A stretch of DNA of 64,000 nucleotides from an uncultured Clostridium sp. (GTDB taxonomy: Bacteria > Bacillota > Clostridia > TANB77 > CAG-508), in contig CAMMVE010000005.1 of NCBI GenBank assembly GCA_946500265.1, positions 1,906 through 65,905 on the forward strand, in the 5' to 3' direction. Positions 4,983 through 51,451 of this stretch are shown piece after piece. The notes under the pieces were generated by a model. It searched no databases and had not been told where the DNA came from. It saw only the letters and a list, made by a program, of their open reading frames with translations. A program made the position numbers and the translations under genes. Numbering within the stretch: position 1 is the first letter of the stretch; every line of letters starts with the position of its first letter.

Positions 4983-6257
4983 ATGGAAAATTATAAAAAC
5001 AGAATTGTTGATGAGGTTCTAAAGAAAAAATTGCAAGGTAAGGGAGCGGTTTTAATTCAAGGACCAAAGTGGTGTGGAAAAACAACAACTGCTGAACAAA
5101 TTTCTAAAAGCATATTGTATATGGCTAAGCCTGATGAAAAAGAGCAAAATTTGACATTATCAGAAATTAATCCGGGTTTACTTTTACAAGGAGAAGTGCC
5201 AAGATTAATTGATGAGTGGCAAATTGCACCAAAGTTATGGGATGCGATAAGGTATGAAATAGACCATAGAAATGCAGAGGGGCAATTTATTTTAACAGGA
5301 TCTTCAGTTCCAGCTAAAGTGGATGATGTAACTCATAGTGGAACTGGACGATTTTCATGGCTATTAATGAGACCAATGAGTTTATATGAATCTGGAGAAT
5401 CAACAGGAGAAGTTAGTTTAAAGGATTTATTTGAAAGTTCCAAGAAAATAGAGGGAATAAATAATTTAGATATAGAAAAAATTGCATATTTAATATGCAG
5501 AGGCGGATGGCCAAGAGCCATTTTCATGGAAGAGGAAATAGCTCTTGAGCAAGCTTTTGATTATTATGACGCTGTTGTTAATAGAGATATTTCCGAAGCA
5601 GATGGTATTTCCAGAAATCCAGAAAGAGTAAAAAATCTAATGAGGGCATATGCAAGAAATATAGGAACTCAGGTATCAAATGATACTTTAAGAAAAGATA
5701 TTATTGCTAATGATTCTAGTTCTTTAGACACAGATACAGTATTGTCATATGTAAATGCATTAAAAAAGATATTTGTAATAGAAGAGGCACCTGCTTGGAA
5801 TCCAAATTTAAGAAGTAAGACGGCGATAAGAACAGCAGATACAAGATACTTTGTAGATCCATCAATAGCTGTTGCTTCGCTAGGAATTGGCCCTAAAGAT
5901 TTAATTAATGACTTAAATACTTTTGGATTACTATTTGAGACATTATGTATAAGAGATTTAAGAATATATGCAGAAAGCATAAAAGGAAATGTTTATCACT
6001 ATAGAGATGCGAACTCATTGGAATGTGATGCTGTTATTCACTTAAGAAATGGCTCTTATGGGTTAATTGAAATTAAACTAGGAGGAGATACGCTAATAAA
6101 TGAGGGAGCTGAGACATTAAAAAAATTAGAATCGCGTATAGATACAACTAAAATGAAAAATCCAGCATTTTTACTCGTAATTACTGCAATAGGAAAATAT
6201 GCATATAGAAGAGAAGATGGAGTATATGTAGTTCCAATTGGTTGTTTAAAAAATTAG
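4983..6257 (+). CDS. AAA-type ATPase with C-terminal DUF4143-like domain
   Basis: The Walker A motif is GPKWCGKTT near the N-terminus. The overall layout and length (424 aa) match the AAA_14 + DUF4143 ATP-binding protein family as I recall it. Confidence 0.65.
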   Translation: MENYKNRIVDEVLKKKLQGKGAVLIQGPKWCGKTTTAEQISKSILYMAKPDEKEQNLTLSEINPGLLLQGEVPRLIDEWQIAPKLWDAIRYEIDHRNAEGQFILTGSSVPAKVDDVTHSGTGRFSWLLMRPMSLYESGESTGEVSLKDLFESSKKIEGINNLDIEKIAYLICRGGWPRAIFMEEEIALEQAFDYYDAVVNRDISEADGISRNPERVKNLMRAYARNIGTQVSNDTLRKDIIANDSSSLDTDTVLSYVNALKKIFVIEEAPAWNPNLRSKTAIRTADTRYFVDPSIAVASLGIGPKDLINDLNTFGLLFETLCIRDLRIYAESIKGNVYHYRDANSLECDAVIHLRNGSYGLIEIKLGGDTLINEGAETLKKLESRIDTTKMKNPAFLLVITAIGKYAYRREDGVYVVPIGCLKN

Positions 6258-33652: not shown

Positions 33653-33895
33653 ATGAGTTCAGAAGAAGTTTTTGAAAAAGTAAAAGGAATTATAGTTGAA
33701 CAATTAGGAGTAGCTGAAACAGCAGTTACAATGGAAGCATCTTTCATAGATGATTTAGGTGCAGATTCACTAGATATAGTAGAATTAATAATGGCTCTTG
33801 AAGAAGAGTTTGATATAGAAATACCAGATGCAGATGCAGAAAAAGTTGTTTCTGTAGGAGACGTAGTAGACTATATTAAAGACCATTTAGCATAG
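33653..33895 (+). CDS. acpP: Acyl carrier protein
   Basis: It contains the phosphopantetheine attachment motif [19 protein letters not shown]. Confidence 0.9.
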
Positions 33896-33926
33896 GAAAA
33901 AGAATTGATAATTTATTAGAAAAGCA

Positions 33927-33968
33927 AAAAGCATTTCAAGGAGTGAAACGAACTTGAAATGCTTTTTC
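33927..33968 (+). terminator. Rho-independent terminator of acpP
   Basis: AAAAGCATTTCAAG ... CTTGAAATGCTTTT forms a 14-bp stem plus a T tail. The loop contains GTGAAAC. Confidence 0.75.
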
Positions 33969-34144
33969 GCATATTTGATGAGGTAGAAGATGGCAAATAT
34001 AACTATAATGATAAAACTTATGATGTTATTTTAGAAATTGAAGGAAAAAGCATAAAAGAAGATAGAAAAAATTTAGGATGCCATAATTGTGAAAACAATA
34101 TATATGCTAGAGAAGTAAATAAATATGTAATAGAAAAAGGCATT

Positions 34145-34299
34145 CAGATAGCGCTGTCTTTGTGAATTCTGACGCCCCTTTCTTCCACCATGGTGGTGAC
34201 TATTACAACAATGCCTCCAGCGCAGGCGTGTTCTACTATGGCATCAACTATGGTAGTGCCAGCGACTTCAACTCATTCCGCCTTGCCTTAGTAATGTAA
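34145..34299 (+). pseudogene. GC-rich 3' remnant of an unidentified gene (...GGDYYNNASSAGVFYYGINYGSASDFNSFRLALVM-stop)
   Basis: The frame is open for only about 50 codons and the composition is strikingly GC-rich for this genome. A paralogous remnant lies at 34917-35006. Confidence 0.35.
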
Positions 34300-34442
34300 T
34301 GTGAAATCTGGCATCTGAGCGACATAAAAAGTTAACAAGCAAACCATGAAAGAATACTGGAACTAGAATAATAGCGGTAAAATAAAAATAAGTAACTTAA
34401 CTACAAAATAAAAATTCAATAAAAGCAATTTGATAAAAAGTA

Positions 34443-34471
34443 TTGATAGAAATAGTATTATCTGATAAAAT
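34443..34471 (+). promoter_or_regulatory. Sigma-A-type promoter (TTGATA-17-TAAAAT) of the stand-alone Rpn-C gene, copy 1
   Basis: It is conserved in copy 2 (36501-36529). Confidence 0.5.
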
Positions 34472-34516
34472 AAGGAGGAAAAGTGGCTACTAACGGGGGA
34501 GGATGAGAAGATAAAG

Positions 34517-34837
34517 ATGGCAAGTGAAGAGAATAAAACAATAGGAAAAGTGGTAGAAGATTTAGACGAAATGAGTGCTGATGAAAATGAGAGGTTAGAG
34601 GCATATAAAAGAAAGCTTGCAATAATAGATTACAATACATCAATAGACATGGCTCATAAAGAAGGAAAGCAAGAAGGAAGGAAAGAGGGCGAGAAAATTG
34701 GCAGAGAAGCTGGCGAAAAAGCTGGAAGAAAGGCAGAACAATTAAAAATAGCTAAAAGATTAAAAGAAAAGGGGATAGAACTTGCCGAAATTATGGATAT
34801 AACAGAATTAACAAAAGAAGAAATAGAAAAGATTTAA
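34517..34837 (+). CDS. Stand-alone homologue of the C-terminal domain of Rpn (YhgA-like) nuclease, copy 1
   Basis: MASEENKTIGKVVEDLDEMSADENERLEAYKRKLAI... aligns with residues about 213-303 of the full-length Rpn protein encoded at 50070..50963 (KMASEKNKSIEKVVEDLDEMSADENERLEAYKRKLAI). Confidence 0.55.
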   Translation: MASEENKTIGKVVEDLDEMSADENERLEAYKRKLAIIDYNTSIDMAHKEGKQEGRKEGEKIGREAGEKAGRKAEQLKIAKRLKEKGIELAEIMDITELTKEEIEKI

Positions 34838-34916
34838 AAGAATGTAATTGTATTGATATAAGTTATTAAAAATATGAAGGAACACAAAAGAAATGAAAAA
34901 AGAGGAAAACAATGAA

Positions 34917-35006
34917 AATGGTTATGCTTCGGGAGTACTCTTCTTTAGCGTGAGTGATGGTAATAGCCACAATAGTGGCTCATTCCGTTTGTCCCTAGTA
35001 TTGTAG
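34917..35006 (+). pseudogene. Second GC-rich 3' remnant (...GYASGVLFFSVSDGNSHNSGSFRLSLVL-stop)
   Basis: It has the same C-terminal motif (SFRL.LV) and the same downstream TGTGAAATCTG... sequence as the remnant at 34145-34299. Confidence 0.3.
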
Positions 35007-35169
35007 TGTGAAATCTGCCATTCGAACAACATGAAACTTAACAAAAAATTATGAAAGAAAACTACGATAGATATAAATTTGCAGTAGATGCAGAAGAAAA
35101 AATGTATAATTCAAATATAAGCAAACAAAAAAATCGTTTTAGACAAAAAATCTAAAGCGATTTTTTATT

Positions 35170-36255
35170 TTATAAACCTACAGAATTTGCTCCATATTCA
35201 GCTTGAGCAGTAGTAAACCCTTCAAATTCTAGTTGACTGATTAATTTACTTCTTGAGAAAGACATAGTATCTAAATATTGTTTAGCTTTTTTAGCAGCTT
35301 GCTGATTCCAATTAGCGCCACAGTTATCGGCACCATATTTAGCTTCAGTACTTGTAAAACCTTCGAATTCTAGCTGGTTTTTTAAACCCTCATATGAGAA
35401 AGCAGAATGCTGTAAATATTGTTTAGCTTTTTCTAATGCTTGTGCTTTCCAGTTAGCTCCACAATTATCAACACCATATTTAGCTTCAGTACTTGTAAAA
35501 CCTTCGAATTCTAGCTGGCCTATTAAGTCTTCATAAGAGAAAGCAGAATGTTGTAAATATTGTTTGGCTTTTTTTAATGCTTGTGCTTTCCAGTTAGCAC
35601 CACAATTATCAACTCCATATTTAGCTTCAGTACTTGTAAAACCTTCGAATTCTAGCTGGTCTTTTAAACCTTCATAAGAAAAAGCAGAATGTTTAAGATA
35701 ACTTTTGGCAGTAGTTAAAGCATTTTGTTTACCAACAGATACATTATTAGTGCTATTGTTAGAACTATTAGTTTTATTGCTATTGTTACTATTGCTAGAA
35801 CTATTAGTTTTGTTGCTATTGTTGCTATTGCTAGAGCTATTAGTTTTATTGCTATTGTTGCTACTGCTAGAGCTATTAGTTTTGTTGCTATTGTTGCTAC
35901 TGCTAGAGCTATTAGTTTTATTGTTATTGTTATTATTGCTAGAGCTATTAGCTTTATTACTATTACTTGAATTATTATTTTTGTTAGAATTGTTAACTTT
36001 ATTGCTATTACTTGATGTTGAATCATTATTCTTAGATGATGTGTTGTTATCTGTTTCTATGCTATTTGATATATTCTCTGGCAAGTTAATATTATTATTA
36101 TCAGAGCCTTTAAAAAAGTCAACTTTATATAAAAAGAATACAACTAAAACAATTATAATAAGTGAAATTATAACAAAAATCCACCATTCCTTATCAAAAC
36201 CTTCTCTTTGTTCTTCCAATTTTACATTCCCCCTTTTCATAAAAGTATAATACAA
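35170..36255 (-). CDS. Membrane-anchored protein with four Ltp-type repeats (host cell surface-exposed lipoprotein Ltp family) and an Asn/Ser-rich tandem-repeat linker
   Basis: The unit A..A..YL....FS...L..QLEFEGFT..EA.YG.DNCGANW..QA occurs four times and matches the Ltp domain of streptococcal phage TP-J34 as I recall it. There is an N-terminal TM helix. The start is uncertain (possibly TTG with an AGGGGG RBS). Confidence 0.6.
   Translation of the reverse strand: MYYTFMKRGNVKLEEQREGFDKEWWIFVIISLIIIVLVVFFLYKVDFFKGSDNNNINLPENISNSIETDNNTSSKNNDSTSSNSNKVNNSNKNNNSSNSNKANSSSNNNNNNKTNSSSSSNNSNKTNSSSSSNNSNKTNSSSNSNNSNKTNSSSNSNNSNKTNSSNNSTNNVSVGKQNALTTAKSYLKHSAFSYEGLKDQLEFEGFTSTEAKYGVDNCGANWKAQALKKAKQYLQHSAFSYEDLIGQLEFEGFTSTEAKYGVDNCGANWKAQALEKAKQYLQHSAFSYEGLKNQLEFEGFTSTEAKYGADNCGANWNQQAAKKAKQYLDTMSFSRSKLISQLEFEGFTTAQAEYGANSVGL
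35750..35960. repeat. Tandem 36-bp coding repeat (about 5-6 units, SNKTNSSS(S/N)SNN)
   Basis: The unit gctattgttgctactgctagagctattagttttgtt repeats inside the Ltp-like gene. Confidence 0.85.
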
Positions 36256-36500
36256 AGATTTACAAAATTCAACATATATATTAATAAAAAAATATGAGTA
36301 ACATTTTTACATGTCCAACTGTCATAAGATATTGCATTTTAAAAATTAATGAAAAAAATACCGTCAAATGGTAAGCTAAATCCAAACGTAACGAATTGAC
36401 AATAAAATAACGAAATAGATGCAAAAAACTAAAAGAAAGAGATAATGTAAAATAATCCATGAAAAAATAAAAATTAATAAAAACAAATTGATAAAAAGTA

Positions 36501-36529
36501 TTGATAGAAATAACATTATCTGATAAAAT
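36501..36529 (+). promoter_or_regulatory. Sigma-A-type promoter (TTGATA-17-TAAAAT) of the stand-alone Rpn-C gene, copy 2
   Basis: This is the same sequence as copy 1. Confidence 0.5.
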
Positions 36530-36584
36530 GAGGAGGAAAAACAATGGTTATGGCTACTAACGGGGGGAGGATGAGAAGATAAAG

Positions 36585-36881
36585 ATGGCAAATGAAGAGA
36601 ATAAAACAATAGAAAAAGTAGTAGAAGAATTAGACGAAATGAGTGCAGATGAAAATGAGAGGTTAGAGGCATATAAAAGAAAGCTTGCGATAATAGACTA
36701 CAACACATCAATAGACATGGCTCATAAAGAAGGAGAGAAAATTGGCAGACAGGAAGGCGAAAAAGCTGGAAGAAAGGCAGAACAATTAAAAATAGCCAAG
36801 AATCTAAAAGAGCAAGGAATAGAAATAGATATAATAGTAAAGACTACAGGACTAACTAAACAAGAGGTGGAATCGATATAA
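36585..36881 (+). CDS. Stand-alone homologue of the C-terminal domain of Rpn nuclease, copy 2
   Basis: It begins MANEENKTIEKVVEELDEMSADENERLEAYKRKLAI and ends ...IAKNLKEQGIEIDIIVKTTGLTKQEVESI, very close to the C-terminus of the full-length Rpn. It is preceded by a decayed QWLWLL.. remnant of the parent gene. Confidence 0.55.
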   Translation: MANEENKTIEKVVEELDEMSADENERLEAYKRKLAIIDYNTSIDMAHKEGEKIGRQEGEKAGRKAEQLKIAKNLKEQGIEIDIIVKTTGLTKQEVESI

Positions 36882-36999
36882 AAAATGAGAAAAACATTTT
36901 TTTAACTTTACTTTAAAAAATAAAAGCTTGAAAAGGCTTTTATTTTTTTGTTAAAAGGTGTATAATATTATCATGTTAACAAGAAAGGAAATTTAAATA

Positions 37000-37674
37000 G
37001 TGAACTTAGAGAAATTAGAAAAAAGTATAGGTTATACTTTTAAAGATAAAAGATTATTAAGGCAAGCTTTAACTCATACATCATATGCCTATGAAAACAA
37101 GGTAGAGAGCAATGAAAAGCTTGAATTTTTAGGAGATAGCATTTTAGAGTTTATTTCTAGTAAGTATATTTATAATAATTATAAAAAACTTAAAGAAGGT
37201 GAAATGACTAAAGTTAGAGCTGAGGTTGTATGTGAGGATAGCTTATATAAAGTGGCTAAAAAGCATAATTTTAGTGATTTTATTTTAATAGGAAAAAGTG
37301 AGTCTGGAACCAAAGGCAATTTTAAGCCAGCAATTTTGGCTGATAGCATTGAAGCGACTATTGCTGCTATATATTTTGATGGAGGATTAACTGAAGCCGA
37401 GAAATTTATAGTTAATAATTTAAAAGAAGCAATAGAAAACTCTACAAAGCATGTTGGAATGAAAGATTTTAAAACTGTACTTCAAGAAAAATTGCAGGAA
37501 AATGGAGATGTACACATTAAATATACTGTAATAAAAGAAACTGGACCAGACCATGATAAAGTATTTACTGTAAAAGTTGAAGTGGATGGAAAGATGCTTG
37601 CAACAGGAGAGGGAAAAACAAAGAAACATGCTGAAATGGATGCGGCAAGTAAGGCTTTATTACTATTAGTTTAA
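37000..37674 (+). CDS. rnc: Ribonuclease III
   Basis: It contains the signature NEKLEFLGDSILEF and a C-terminal dsRBD. The start is GTG. Confidence 0.9.
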   Translation: MNLEKLEKSIGYTFKDKRLLRQALTHTSYAYENKVESNEKLEFLGDSILEFISSKYIYNNYKKLKEGEMTKVRAEVVCEDSLYKVAKKHNFSDFILIGKSESGTKGNFKPAILADSIEATIAAIYFDGGLTEAEKFIVNNLKEAIENSTKHVGMKDFKTVLQEKLQENGDVHIKYTVIKETGPDHDKVFTVKVEVDGKMLATGEGKTKKHAEMDAASKALLLLV

Positions 37675-49562: not shown

Positions 49563-49982
49563 ATGAAAGTTATGGACCAACTAGAATCTTATTTTGTATT
49601 ACGGAAAGATTTAGAGGTCGTAGAGGAACTTTCAAATGCTGCTATGCTGGTATTTGAACAACTTCTACCAATGGAGAGAGCAAAAGAATGTTATGAAGAA
49701 GTATGGCTCAAACTTATTCAAGTATCACAACATATGACTACCGTAAAACTGGACATTCAGTCCGAAAGAGAATTGGAGGATAGCTTTACTGAATTCTTTT
49801 ATGGAGAGATTAATCGAAAGGAATTAAAGGAACGCCTTTCTCCTTCCATAAACGGAATGCAACGATGCATTAGAGATTTAAAGTCTCACAAAGAGATTTT
49901 AGAGTATCTTTTGCTTAAAAAGTATGAAGAGCATTTCGACAAAAAAGCATCTGAAATTTTGGAATTTTTGGAATCGATGTAA
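49563..49982 (+). CDS. Hypothetical helical protein
   Basis: It has a good RBS and is a 139-aa, all-helix-looking protein. It is GC-richer than its neighbours and contains an in-frame CGG at 49602-49604. I recognise no family. Confidence 0.4.
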   Translation: MKVMDQLESYFVLRKDLEVVEELSNAAMLVFEQLLPMERAKECYEEVWLKLIQVSQHMTTVKLDIQSERELEDSFTEFFYGEINRKELKERLSPSINGMQRCIRDLKSHKEILEYLLLKKYEEHFDKKASEILEFLESM

Positions 49983-50069: not shown

Positions 50070-50963
50070 CTAATTTAATGATTCAACCTCTTCTCTTGAT
50101 AAACCGGTTGCTTTAATGATAATTTCAATTTCAATGCCTTGCTTCTTTAAATTTTTAGCAATTTCCAATTTTTCCTCTTTTTTACCTTCTTTTTTACCAT
50201 TATCTGTAGCTTCATTAATAGAAACGTTATAATCCCATATAGCAAGTTTTCTCTTGTATGCCTCTAATCTTTCATTTTCATCAGCACTCATTTCGTCTAA
50301 GTCCTCAACAACTTTTTCAATTGATTTATTTTTTTCACTTGCCATTTTAACTTTGTCCTCCTCTCCAATAATTAACCATAGCCATTGCTCTAATTCATTG
50401 CTAATTCCTGGATTCTGCTTTAAAAATTTAGGTAATTCTATATAATGAAATCCTACTCTATCTGTTAAAATTTGCTGTTCAGGTTCATAGCCCATATCTA
50501 CATATTTTATAGGGTCAGTTTCTTCAAATTTTAAATGCACTATACTATGATAAGCATTTCTTTTTAACAGATTATCTCCAAGAATATTTATAGAGATAAA
50601 TTTCTTTAAGTATTGGTATTTATCTCCGACTCGAAGCTGTTCCGCAATAATCCTAGATAAATAAGAAATATTTCTATTAACGATAGTATAGACATTACCA
50701 ACTTGCATTTCAACATCAATAATAATATCGTCATTAACATGGGCTCTAATGTCAAGAATACCAAGCTTTTCATCAGGGTAATTTTTAGGCAGTTCAGGAT
50801 TCTTAACTTCAATATTATTAATAGAAATATTAAGAATAGCCTCCAAGAATTCTTTAAGCTCAGAACTATTTTCAGGCTTAGAAAAGATTTTTTTAAAGAC
50901 ATAATCATCTTTTAAATCGAGTCTGGAATTGTCTTTAATAAAATCAGACATGTTTTGTAACAT
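50070..50963 (-). CDS. Rpn-family recombination-promoting nuclease / putative transposase (YhgA-like, PD-(D/E)XK)
   Basis: It begins LKDDYVFKKIF and contains ...LGILDIRAHVNDDIIIDVEMQV (the D..D/ExK core) and HYIELPKF. I prefer the start ATG at 50963, 8 nt after AAGGAG. Confidence 0.75.
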   Translation of the reverse strand: MLQNMSDFIKDNSRLDLKDDYVFKKIFSKPENSSELKEFLEAILNISINNIEVKNPELPKNYPDEKLGILDIRAHVNDDIIIDVEMQVGNVYTIVNRNISYLSRIIAEQLRVGDKYQYLKKFISINILGDNLLKRNAYHSIVHLKFEETDPIKYVDMGYEPEQQILTDRVGFHYIELPKFLKQNPGISNELEQWLWLIIGEEDKVKMASEKNKSIEKVVEDLDEMSADENERLEAYKRKLAIWDYNVSINEATDNGKKEGKKEEKLEIAKNLKKQGIEIEIIIKATGLSREEVESLN

Positions 50964-51451
50964 AAGCATTTCTCCTTCCAATTATATAATAGAAAATAAC
51001 TATAATCAACATTTTTATAAATTTAACTTAAAAATAACACAAAAATATATGGGTGAAATATCGAGGGGTAAAATTGATAATTCTTTGTTAACAAAAAATT
51101 ATTGAGAACGATATAGATTAATAATGGCGACAGATATAAATTAAATAATAAAAATAATAGATTATAAAATTGAAATAAAATAACTAAAACAATTAGGAAA
51201 TTCAAAAGAAATAACTTTTAGAGAAAGTAGTAATAAAATAAAGTAAAACTAAAAAGAATAAAAGTAATTTGAAAAAAACTAATATTTTAGAAATTAAATA
51301 CTCAATTTTAAAAATATATATCACGAACAAATAGAAAAATCAAGTAAAATCGTTCGACGGAATTCGACAACAAAATATTTTTCTACGTGAAAAAAAGCTA
51401 AAAAATTTGCAGAAGTTGTTAAAATAGGACTGCTAATAAAGTATTAAGATA

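What the first reader, a model, noticed from the sequence alone, without database searches (positions are those of the whole stretch)
34395..36881. Two promoter-equipped stand-alone genes for the Rpn C-terminal domain: candidate free-standing RpnS-type antitoxins
Copies at ~34395-34837 and ~36463-36881 share a TTGATA-17-TAAAAT promoter, a short upstream remnant of the parent gene (QWLWLL.., now out of frame) and an ORF starting MA(S/N)EENK.... This ORF aligns with the last ~90 residues of the full-length Rpn nuclease at 50070-50963 and begins at exactly the internal Met of that protein (..VKMASEKNK..).

In E. coli, small RpnS proteins translated from internal starts of rpn genes were reported to neutralise the toxic full-length nuclease, which acts in phage defence. 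Here the small domain exists as independent, duplicated, separately transcribed genes 14 kb from the nuclease. They could act as trans antitoxins, anti-defence decoys or regulators. The conservation of promoter and ORF in both copies argues against simple debris.
Basis: partly seen in the sequence, partly recalled or inferred. Interest (0 to 1): 0.65.

Follow-up and report, generated by a model that had tools for sequence, protein, structure and literature searches.

The report
Orphan RpnS genes left by deletions
The two small genes are what is left of two Rpn defence-nuclease genes after the nuclease half was deleted, so the parental promoter now drives only the small C-terminal "antitoxin" part; free-standing genes of this kind are already known, so this is a clear but fairly ordinary example.

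Summary
ORFs 34517-34837 (106 aa) and 36585-36881 (98 aa) are paralogues. Each sits in a ~430-bp cassette with a shared TTGATA-17-TAAAAT promoter-like site. Both match the last ~90 residues of the Rpn nuclease at 50070-50981 and start at its internal Met.

They are RpnS-type proteins. They have a long helix plus a small helix-turn-helix-like (HTH-like) bundle that matches E. coli RpnA-S (PDB 7TH0). They also show the family's length variation in four-residue steps.

The shared promoter is not a new acquisition. It is the native promoter and ribosome-binding site of a full-length rpn gene. Sister strains with 97-99% identical flanks carry an intact 308-aa rpn exactly where copy 1 sits. The small genes arose by microhomology deletions from the start-codon region to just upstream of the RpnS start. 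Similar promoter-retaining deletions occurred independently at least five or six times in related Clostridia.

Zhong et al. 2023 already described separate RpnS genes. They also showed that RpnS blocks only an RpnL with the same repeat number. Here the RpnS parts are 106, 98 and 91 aa, so neutralising the nuclease 13 kb away is unlikely.

The best reading is orphan antitoxin genes, intact and probably expressed, with no proven role. This is a new member of a known kind, of modest interest.

The parts
34405..34839 (+). Copy-1 cassette: parental rpn promoter region, SD, remnant and RpnS-type ORF
   Evidence: Direct repeat with 36463-36883. Window 34385-34480 matches the region just upstream of the full-length rpn start in L016 (87%). 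Window 34484-37300 matches L016 5919-8758 (97%).
34430..34471 (+). Two overlapping promoter-like sites: TTGATA-17-TAGTAT (34430-34458) and TTGATA-17-TAAAAT with TG (34443-34471)
   Evidence: The same element lies upstream of full-length rpn genes in L016 and in 10 MAG (metagenome-assembled genome) loci.
34472..34479 (+). AAGGAGGA, the native Shine-Dalgarno of the parental full-length gene. Its start codon has been lost in this allele.
   Evidence: Comparison with L016 5319-5336 and L022 5763-5783.
34484..34516 (+). In-frame remnant of the parent gene (WLLTGEDEKIK). It includes a G5 tract (34495-34499) and the internal SD-like GGAGGA.
   Evidence: tblastn hit 34484-34834.
34517..34837 (+). RpnS-type ORF, copy 1 (106 aa)
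36463..36883 (+). Copy-2 cassette. In sister strains of variant B this exact segment is replaced by a 171-aa FGE-sulfatase-like gene.
36488..36529 (+). Promoter-like sites: TTGATA-17-TAACAT and TTGATA-17-TAAAAT with TG
36544..36582 (+). uORF MVMATNGGRMRR* that starts at the fused parental-type ATG behind a well-spaced GGAGG. It contains the QWLWLL remnant (36542-36559) and a G6 tract (36562-36567). Its stop lies 2 nt before the RpnS ATG. In six sister contigs the tract is G7, and this ATG is then in frame, giving a 112-aa product.
   Evidence: (P0001).
36585..36881 (+). RpnS-type ORF, copy 2 (98 aa)
50070..50981 (-). Full-length Rpn nuclease (PDDEXK_2). The likely true start is ATG 50963. The internal RpnS-type Met is at 50345, preceded by GGAGAGGAGGA. 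Its RpnS part is 91 aa.
35170..36255 (-). Context: Ltp-like (superinfection-exclusion type) lipoprotein gene between the two cassettes. It is not part of the Rpn system.
   Evidence: Pfam Lipoprotein_Ltp 4e-56; PHROG superinfection exclusion 1e-61.

Best explanation
Each small gene is an rpn gene that has lost its nuclease half.

Origin (shown). A short-homology deletion ran from the SD/start-codon region of a full-length rpn gene to a point 11-14 codons upstream of the internal RpnS start. This left the parental promoter and ribosome-binding region directly in front of the RpnS reading frame.

Product (shown by homology and fold prediction). The product is an RpnS-type protein. It has one long helix carrying a variable number of four-residue repeats, followed by a small HTH-like helical bundle. 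In E. coli this is the dimerisation and antitoxin module of Rpn.

Expression and activity (inferred). The genes are transcribed from the retained rpn promoter. They are translated from the family's internal start, helped in copy 2 by coupling to a uORF (or directly from the parental ATG in G7 alleles). The proteins form RpnS-type dimers that can bind only an RpnL with a matching repeat region.

Consequence. Their own nuclease domains are gone, and the one nuclease in the window has a different repeat count. They are therefore orphan antitoxins. Either they are tolerated leftovers of toxin loss, or they are kept as protection against matching Rpn nucleases elsewhere in the genome or arriving from outside.
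For: - Homology to the Rpn C-terminus at E 1e-32 to 1e-35, and a start at the internal Met.
- In syntenic sister contigs (plsX-acpP-island-rnc), variant A has an intact 308-aa PDDEXK_2 gene where copy 1 sits. Variant B has a 102-aa small gene there.
- blastn shows the small-gene alleles equal the full-length allele minus ~570-590 bp.
- The L022 junction reads AACATATGG|CTATGGCTAC. This is ATGG microhomology between the start codon and the internal CAATGG.
- The TTGATA-N17-T(T/A)AAAAT element followed by GGAGG lies upstream of full-length rpn genes in about 10 MAG loci.
- Independent deletions that retain the promoter occur in L022, window c1, window c2, L040-42, L003 and L008.
- The AF2 model has a long helix plus two short helices. 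The best PDB match is 7TH0, E. coli RpnA-S (probability 1.00, target-normalised TM-score (TMt) 0.76, rmsd 0.8 Å). The sequence profile also hits 7TH0 at E 4e-4.
- The distance between the conserved N-terminal motif and the HTH anchor is a multiple of 4 in 75 of 78 homologues.
- The small ORF is intact in every short-read (non-'tig') stand-alone allele read here except one with an IS insertion. dN/dS is 0.05-0.16.
- A cassette with the same derived junction occurs in different flanks (L040 versus L042).
- In the copy-2 lineage the G tract went from 5 to 7. This puts the strong parental ATG in frame in six contigs.
- Separate RpnS genes that are expressed are documented in E. coli (PMC10400941).
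Against: - There are no expression data.
- The SD-like GGAGG lies 14 nt from the RpnS ATG in both window copies, which is long.
- Copy 1 has lost the parental ATG.
- If the TAAAAT -10 is the one used, the transcription start would fall in or next to the parental SD.
- Copy 2 is absent from variant-B strains, replaced by an FGE-sulfatase-like gene.
- One contig has an IS3-family insertion in the repeat region.
- The low dN/dS could have accumulated while the sequences were still part of full-length genes, or have been imported by recombination. It does not prove selection on the stand-alone state.
- No RpnL with a matching repeat count is visible in the 64 kb.
- The survey only sees deletions that kept the C-terminus.
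Confidence: 0.65

Rival explanations
1. Inert debris. The two ORFs are recent gene remnants that stay open only because too little time has passed. They are not usefully expressed and do nothing.
For: - They arose by deletion within a strain-variable island.
- The L022 allele differs from its full-length counterpart by 1 of 102 codons, so it is very recent.
- Copy 2 is dispensable in variant B.
- There is an IS insertion allele.
- The SD spacing is suboptimal, and there are frame changes in the G tract.
- A continuum of broken rpn genes exists (L001, L014, L035, L037).
Against: - At least five or six independent deletions all keep the promoter and the RpnS start.
- Their 5' breakpoints lie within ~15 nt of the SD or start codon.
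- A derived cassette has spread to different flanks, and its 3' half has diversified without being broken.
- Two added Gs in the copy-2 lineage restore the frame with the strong parental start.
- dN/dS is about 0.1 between stand-alone alleles that share a junction (w_c1 versus L031).
Confidence: 0.25
2. Trans-acting antitoxins or regulators of the full-length Rpn at 50070-50981.
For: - The first 47 residues are about 90% identical to the corresponding part of that nuclease.
- Copy 2's HTH region is also close to it.
- RpnS binds RpnL through this C-terminal module (PMC10400941).
Against: - In E. coli, RpnAS and RpnBS do not cross-protect. Adding a single four-residue repeat to RpnCS abolishes protection unless RpnCL carries the same insertion (PMC10400941).
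- Here the RpnS parts are 106, 98 and 91 aa, differing by 4 and 2 repeats.
- That nuclease has its own internal Met and SD-like sequence, so it should make its own RpnS.
- The small genes derive from other rpn paralogues.
Confidence: 0.1
3. DNA-binding HTH regulators, for example repressors of rpn-type promoters, rather than antitoxins.
For: - After 7TH0, the next structural matches of the C-terminal bundle are HTH DNA-binding domains of recombinases and repressors. All are non-significant (E of 0.6 or more).
- The rpn promoter element is strongly conserved, and it also occurs in front of an unrelated radical-SAM gene.
Against: - All those matches are non-significant, and the bundle is very small.
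- No DNA binding has been reported for RpnS.
- No palindromic operator was recognised in the promoter.
Confidence: 0.05

Closest known systems
RpnS, the intragenic antitoxin of Rpn (RpnL) nucleases (Zhong et al. 2023, PMC10400941; structure 7TH0)
   Same: - It corresponds to the C-terminal part of a PD-(D/E)XK Rpn protein.
- It starts at an internal Met preceded by an SD-like sequence.
- It has a long first helix with a variable number of four-residue repeats, then a small helical bundle.
- The best structural match is RpnA-S.
   Different: - It is not nested in a nuclease gene, because the nuclease part has been deleted.
- The product is 98-106 aa, against 49 aa for RpnAS.
- The repeats begin ~47 residues after the Met, not 8-20 as reported.
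- The first ~45 residues fall inside the Pfam PDDEXK_2 model.
- Antitoxin activity is untested.
RpnSs: separate small genes such as ypaA/rpnESs and rpnCSs, and DUF4351 genes (same paper)
   Same: It is a free-standing gene that encodes only the RpnS module, derived from a neighbouring or paralogous rpn gene. In variant-A sister strains, copy 2 lies 1.7 kb downstream of a full-length rpn.
   Different: - E. coli rpnSs genes lie directly downstream of their cognate rpn and are described as duplicates.
- Here the genes arose by deletion of the nuclease domain, and they keep the parental promoter and SD.
- In this window no full-length rpn is adjacent.
- There is no match to the DUF4351 model.
Orphan antitoxins of type II toxin-antitoxin systems (general knowledge)
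   Same: The antitoxin reading frame and promoter survive after the toxin is lost. Loss of the toxin is tolerated, whereas loss of the antitoxin alone is not.
   Different: The toxin and antitoxin were one overlapping reading frame. A single 5' deletion therefore converts the toxin gene itself into the antitoxin gene.
Pfam PF27070 HTH_Rpn_C
   Same: The precomputed annotation assigns this family to P0001 (98% identical to copy 2) and to many of the short homologues.
   Different: The model is not in the local Pfam copy, so the window proteins could not be scored. The copy-1-type protein P0010 has no hit on record.

Membership tests
RpnS-type protein (C-terminal module of Rpn nucleases) | Sequence homology to the C-terminal region of a PDDEXK_2/TIGR01784 Rpn protein | tested here: met
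   tblastn E 1e-35 and 3e-32 to the window's own Rpn. TIGR01784 positions 187-273 matched at E 1e-8 and 3e-8.
RpnS-type protein (C-terminal module of Rpn nucleases) | Reading frame starts at the position of the internal translation start of the long gene, with an SD-like sequence upstream | tested here: inconclusive
   Both ORFs start at the Met aligned with M213 of the full-length protein. This Met is invariant in 22 aligned sequences. In L003 the retained homology begins exactly at the SD-like GGAGG. Use of this start has not been shown, the spacing is 14 nt in the window copies, and the repeats lie further from the Met than reported for known RpnS.
RpnS-type protein (C-terminal module of Rpn nucleases) | Length variation by four-residue repeats in the first helix | tested here: met
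   The motif-to-HTH distance is a multiple of 4 in 75 of 78 homologues. Allele lengths are 82, 86, 90, 94, 98, 102 and 106 aa. Copy 1 has one EGKQ unit more than the L016 allele.
RpnS-type protein (C-terminal module of Rpn nucleases) | Fold: long helix plus compact helical bundle like RpnA-S (7TH0) | tested here: met
   AF2 model with pLDDT 75, rising to 83-91 in the C-terminal bundle. The top Foldseek hit is 7TH0, with TMt 0.76 and rmsd 0.8 Å over 37 columns, although E is only 0.15 because the domain is so short. The profile hit to 7TH0 has E 4e-4.
RpnS-type protein (C-terminal module of Rpn nucleases) | Binds and neutralises a cognate toxic RpnL | not testable with these tools
   This needs co-expression and biochemical assays. 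No RpnL with the same repeat count is present in the window.
RpnSs (separate small gene next to its cognate rpn) | Lies directly downstream of a full-length rpn gene from which it was duplicated | tested here: not met
   In the window the only full-length rpn is 13 kb away on the other strand. The cassettes carry the parental 5' region and a deletion junction, so they are deleted whole genes and not 3' duplicates.
DUF4351 (PF14261) | Match to the Pfam model | tested here: not met
   No hit at E of 1 or lower for either small protein or for the full-length protein.
HTH_Rpn_C (PF27070) | Match to the Pfam model | tested here: inconclusive
   The model is absent from the local Pfam library. A precomputed hit exists for P0001 (98% identical to copy 2) but none is on record for the copy-1-type P0010.
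Known anti-phage defence system (PADLOC-DB 2.0) | Match to a defence-system protein model | tested here: not met
   No hit for the small proteins or for the full-length Rpn. That library predates or omits Rpn.

The most novel reading that the evidence does not exclude
Loss of the nuclease domain is not random decay but a recurrent, favoured conversion. Short-homology deletions anchored at the SD or start codon repeatedly turn rpn toxin-antitoxin genes into cassettes in which the rpn promoter drives RpnS alone. These cassettes then spread to new sites and swap their repeat/HTH halves by recombination in the near-identical 5' part of the ORF. The result would be a small library of orphan antitoxins that immunises the cell against matching Rpn nucleases, whether resident paralogues or ones arriving on mobile elements. 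Slippage in the G5-G7 tract would set how strongly each cassette is translated.
Probability: 0.15. Interest if true: 0.55.

Novelty: new member of a known kind. Interest (0 to 1): 0.3.

Why it matters
Rpn nucleases are a recently recognised toxin-antitoxin type of phage defence in which the antitoxin is read from inside the toxin gene. This locus shows, with the ancestral and derived alleles side by side in one species, how that arrangement decays. One deletion removes the toxin and leaves a promoter-driven antitoxin.

Two uses follow. If the orphan RpnS proteins are made, they give a natural set of repeat-number variants for testing the published rule that repeat number sets RpnL-RpnS specificity. 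They also allow a test of whether orphan antitoxins protect against incoming Rpn genes. For annotation, it helps to know that many ~90-110-aa HTH_Rpn_C proteins in Clostridia are deletion derivatives of rpn genes and not a separate gene family.

Tried and rejected
- **DUF4351.** The Pfam DUF4351 model gave no match, so I did not file the genes under that name.
- **PADLOC and Rfam.** PADLOC found nothing for the Rpn proteins. Rfam found nothing in 33800-37100.
- **Phage search.** tblastn gave only six weak matches, mostly in full-length YhgA-like genes. This offers no support for a phage-borne decoy origin of these copies.
- **Genome-contig scan.** It did not contain the window's own species. 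It returned 15 loci at 60% identity or less, useful only for the family-wide survey.
- **Metagenome contigs pattern scan.** It gave only four loci.
- **P0030/L038.** This looked like a decaying copy 2. The contig is a long-read 'tig' with scattered indels and clustered mismatches along the whole alignment, so I treat the frameshifts as probable sequencing noise.
- **Short homologues.** Several are not free-standing genes. They are contig ends (L032) or split or frameshifted full-length genes (L035, L037). The count of 73 short clusters among the top 150 therefore overstates true stand-alone genes.
- **dN/dS.** It is low, but it cannot separate selection before and after the deletions, because the 3' halves are mosaic.
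- **Single deletion followed by duplication.** I considered whether copies 1 and 2 stem from one deletion that was then duplicated. The junctions differ (GGAGGAAAAG|TGGCTAC versus AAAAACA|ATGGTTATGG). The L022 junction matches its own full-length allele base for base. Independent events are therefore more likely, but this is not proven.
- **Clustering of 5' breakpoints.** I did not test this statistically.
Full report
**What is in the sequence.** The two small ORFs are real. One is at 34517-34837 (106 aa) and the other at 36585-36881 (98 aa), both on the + strand. A tblastn of the window finds exactly three related places. These are the two small ORFs (77% identical to each other, E 5e-45) and the C-terminal ~100 residues of the 303-aa ORF at 50070-50981 on the - strand (E 1e-35 and 3e-32).

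The long ORF is a typical Rpn nuclease. It matches Pfam PDDEXK_2 at 5e-46 and NCBIfam TIGR01784 'Rpn family recombination-promoting nuclease/putative transposase' at 6e-43. Its likely true start is the ATG at 50963, 8 nt after GGAG.

The small proteins match only the last third of TIGR01784, positions 187-273, at E about 1e-8. Both begin at the Met that aligns with ..EEDKVKM213ASEKNK.. of the long protein.

The duplicated unit runs from about 34405 to 34839 and from 36463 to 36883. It includes TTGATA-17-TAAAAT with a TG extended -10 at 34443-34471 and 36501-36529. A second overlapping promoter-like site lies 13 nt upstream in each copy. Promoter-like matches are not enriched in this AT-rich stretch (14 found, 16 expected), so the argument for a promoter rests on conservation.

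The remnant of the parent gene is out of frame only in copy 2. In copy 1 it is in frame (WLLTGEDEKIK) but has no start codon.

**What the proteins are.** Aligned with database homologues, the small proteins have three parts:
- an almost invariant N-terminal ~47 residues (MASEENKTIEKVVE.LDEMSADENERLEAYKRKLAI.DYN..I);
- a middle region made of four-residue units (EGRK, EGEK, IGRE, AGEK ...) whose number differs between alleles;
- a C-terminal ~30 residues (IAK.LK..G......I...TGL[TS].EE[IV]E..).

The distance from the N-terminal motif to the C-terminal anchor is a multiple of four in 75 of 78 homologues, ranging from 32 to 64 residues.

An AlphaFold model of copy 2 (mean pLDDT 75, with 83-91 in the last 30 residues) is one long helix (3-76) followed by two short helices. 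Its best match in the PDB is 7TH0, E. coli RpnA-S (probability 1.00, TM-score 0.76 on the target, rmsd 0.8 Å over 37 columns, 32% identity). The E-value is only 0.15 because the domain is tiny. A sequence profile of the family also finds 7TH0 at E 4e-4. The higher-ranked designer-PPR hits are sums of insignificant repeats.

These features match those that Zhong et al. 2023 (PMC10400941) describe for RpnS. RpnS is the small protein translated from an internal start of rpn genes. It dimerises through a long first helix, varies by four-residue repeats, and blocks the toxic full-length nuclease RpnL. The precomputed Pfam annotation of close homologues names the domain HTH_Rpn_C (PF27070). That model is not in the local library, so I could not score the window proteins directly.

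**Where the small genes came from.** The closest database protein to copy 2 (P0001) and the copy-1-type protein P0010 led to metagenome contigs with the same gene order as the window. That order is cation ATPase, M23 peptidase, plsX, acpP, a variable island, rnc, radical SAM, YitT and OGG. The flanks are 97-99% identical to the window.

The island occurs in at least three forms:
- **Variant A** (L016-L019, also L038): acpP, an 80-aa gene, an HTH_26 gene, a full-length 308-aa PDDEXK_2 rpn gene, the Ltp-like gene, a copy-2-type small gene, rnc.
- **Variant B** (L022-L027): a 102-aa small gene in place of the full-length rpn, and a 171-aa FGE-sulfatase-like gene in place of copy 2.
- **The window:** small genes at both positions. 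It has also lost the HTH_26 gene.

blastn shows the following:
- Window 34385-34480 matches the 98 nt just upstream of the full-length start codon in L016 (87%).
- Window 34484-37300 matches L016 5919-8758 (97%).
- L022 equals L016 minus 5342-5911.

Reading the sequences confirms this. The full-length gene is preceded by TTGATAgaaataatattatctgcTAAAATaaggaggaagaacatATGGATATAG. In L022 this runs straight into the internal sequence as ...gaacatATGG|CTATGGCTACTAACGGGGGAGG. That is a deletion between the ATGG of the start codon and the ATGG inside CAATGG (Gln-Trp), 14 codons upstream of the RpnS Met.

The small genes are rpn genes with the nuclease domain cut out. Both variants occur in one sample: ERZ21563605 holds contig_52536 and contig_52535.

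**How general this is.**
- **Conserved promoter.** Upstream of full-length rpn genes in about ten MAG loci of gut Clostridia, the same architecture recurs. It is TTGATA, 17 nt, T(T/A)AAAAT, then GGAGG within 0-2 nt. This is a conserved feature of this rpn clade.
- **Recurrent deletions near the start.** Several independent deletions keep this promoter and remove the nuclease domain. Their 5' ends all lie within about 15 nt of the SD or start codon:
  - L022-27: ATGG.
  - Window copy 2 and its L016-21 alleles: AAAAACA|ATGGTTATGG.
  - Window copy 1 with L028 and L031: GGAGGAAAAG|TGGCTAC.
  - L040-42: AACAT|AGAGTTAAG. This keeps 32 codons, and the RpnS start has moved to a GTG with an 8-nt SD spacing.
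  - L003: native SD fused to the internal SD, AAGGAGG|AGGAAAAAGTAAAAATG. Its upstream region is homologous to that of the full-length L010.
  - L008: TATGGAA microhomology. This keeps about 53 codons.
- **Other breakage patterns.** L035 has an internal deletion of residues ~104-175. L037 is frameshifted. L014 has an unrelated upstream sequence. L001 has several deletions.
- **Search of 1.84 billion representatives.** The family profile found 4,653 clusters at E of 1e-3 or lower. Of the best 150, 73 are 120 aa or shorter, 20 are 270 aa or longer, and 57 are in between. Some short ones are contig ends or pieces of broken genes, so these numbers overstate true free-standing genes.
- **Genome contigs survey.** Of 15 loci, 11 were full-length and 4 were truncated.

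**Are the small genes maintained?** The evidence is mixed.

For maintenance:
- The small ORF is intact in every short-read (non-'tig') stand-alone allele read here, apart from the L039 IS-insertion allele noted below.
- dN/dS is 0.05-0.16 in all informative pairs. This includes window copy 1 against L031, which share the same derived junction (dS 0.82, ratio 0.09).
- The L040-type cassette occurs with the same junction in unrelated flanks (L040/L041 versus L042). Its first ~370 nt are nearly identical, and its repeat/HTH half is diverged but unbroken.
- In the copy-2 lineage the G tract is G7 in six contigs. This puts the strong parental-type ATG in frame and gives a 112-aa product. The parental sequence has G5 and the window has G6.

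Against maintenance:
- The divergence may predate the deletions or come from recombination with full-length paralogues. The 5' halves are near-identical while the 3' halves differ, which is a mosaic pattern.
- The L022 deletion is very recent, with 1 difference in 102 codons from its full-length counterpart.
- Copy 2 is missing in variant B.
- One contig has an IS3-family element inserted in the repeat region (L039).

A seemingly frameshifted copy 2 (L038) sits on a long-read contig with scattered indels and clustered mismatches along the whole alignment. It is not reliable evidence.

**Likely expression.** This is inferred only.
- In copy 2, a 12-codon uORF starts at a well-spaced SD (GGAGG, 7 nt, ATG 36544) and stops 2 nt before the RpnS ATG. 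That arrangement is suited to translational coupling.
- In copy 1 the parental ATG is gone, and only a GTG four bases after the SD remains.
- The SD-like GGAGG that precedes the RpnS Met throughout the family is 14 nt from the ATG in the window copies. In several other members it is 11 nt away.
- If TAAAAT is the -10 in use, transcription would begin in or beside the parental SD. That would not hinder RpnS translation.
- No Rfam family matches the region.

**Function.** Zhong et al. showed three relevant things. RpnAS and RpnBS do not cross-protect. Adding one four-residue repeat to RpnCS abolishes protection unless RpnCL carries the same insertion. Separate RpnS genes exist and are expressed, namely ypaA/rpnESs, rpnCSs, and genes annotated DUF4351.

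In the window the RpnS parts are 106 aa (copy 1), 98 aa (copy 2) and 91 aa (the nuclease at 50070-50981, including one extra C-terminal residue). The differences are four and two repeats. The nuclease also has its own internal Met with an SD-like sequence. On the published rule, the two small proteins should not neutralise it.

The most economical account is that they are orphan antitoxins. A 5' deletion of a gene-within-gene toxin-antitoxin necessarily removes the toxin and spares the antitoxin. It is tolerated, or favoured if the nuclease is costly. Whether the orphans are then kept for a purpose cannot be decided from sequence. Possible purposes are protection against a matching Rpn elsewhere in the genome or one arriving on a mobile element.

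I put about 0.65 on 'orphan RpnS genes, intact and probably expressed' and 0.25 on 'inert recent debris'. The origin by deletion I regard as close to certain. I put 0.1 on 'trans antitoxin of the 50070 nuclease' and 0.05 on 'DNA-binding regulator'.

**Comparison with what is known, and novelty.** The proteins work like RpnS and meet the sequence, repeat and fold criteria. They differ from the E. coli examples in four ways:
- They are longer (98-106 aa against 49 aa).
- The repeats lie ~47 residues from the start, rather than 8-20.
- They are not adjacent duplicates of a cognate rpn.
- They do not match DUF4351.

Free-standing RpnS genes as a class are already published. What this locus adds is a clear origin route, with the ancestral and derived alleles both observed, and the recurrence of deletions that retain the promoter. 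That makes it a new member of a known kind. Interest is modest, about 0.3. The more ambitious reading is that such conversions are favoured and build a shuffled library of orphan antitoxins, with G-tract slippage tuning translation. That is not excluded, but I give it only about 0.15.

Noticed in passing
window 34141-34299 and 34893-35006 (with conserved tails to ~34360 and ~35080): These are two G+C-rich 3' fragments of FGE-sulfatase/C-type-lectin-like genes. They end in ..NSFRLALVM* and ..GSFRLSLVL*. A highly variable stretch is followed by a conserved ~60-nt tail. A sister strain has an intact 171-aa paralogue (L022 7925-8440) exactly where copy 2 sits in the window. The pattern resembles variable-repeat ends of diversity-generating retroelement targets, but no reverse transcriptase was looked for.
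   Followed up: partly
window 35170-36255 (-), repeats at 35709-36032 and 35190-35750: This is an Ltp-like (phage superinfection-exclusion type) lipoprotein gene with four Ltp domains and a Ser/Asn-rich tract built of 9/27/36-nt repeats. Its length differs between sister strains (337, 349, 361 and 373 aa).
   Followed up: partly
L029 4338-4366 (-) and L030 97-125 (+): The ~50-nt core of the rpn promoter element (ATTTGATAAAA.TATTGATAGAAATAAAATTATCTGTTAAAATAAGGA) also lies upstream of an unrelated radical-SAM (activating-enzyme-like) gene in another organism. It is about 90% identical to the window copies. It could be a promoter left behind by complete loss of an rpn gene, or a shared regulatory element.
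   Followed up: partly
window 36562-36567, 34495-34499; L016 8020-8026: The G tract just upstream of the RpnS start has 5, 6 or 7 Gs in different alleles. The number decides whether the upstream ATG is in frame with RpnS. G7 occurs in six independent short-read contigs. The window's G6 could be a real slippage variant or an assembly error.
   Followed up: partly
window 36585-36881 and 50070-50200 (protein level): The HTH part of the RpnS module matches NCBIfam 'WO male-killing family protein Wmk' (E 1.5e-6). It also matches two small PHROG families of unknown function, phrog_5416 (66-position profile) and phrog_12274. This hints that phages and Wolbachia prophages carry related small HTH modules.
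   Followed up: no
L003 6346-7281: In one MAG the free-standing RpnS gene is followed by a 68-aa gene and a Fic/DOC-type gene (HPFRDGNTRT motif). This is another toxin-antitoxin-like pair.
   Followed up: no
window 49563-49982 (+): A 139-aa ORF with no Pfam or PADLOC match lies tail to tail with the full-length rpn gene.
   Followed up: no
window 33959-34165; L016 4184-4692: The window has lost the HTH_26 (Xre-like) regulator gene and the 3' end of an 80-aa gene. In sister strains both lie between acpP and the rpn gene, and the regulator is divergently oriented to rpn. The HTH_26 protein might regulate the rpn promoter.
   Followed up: no
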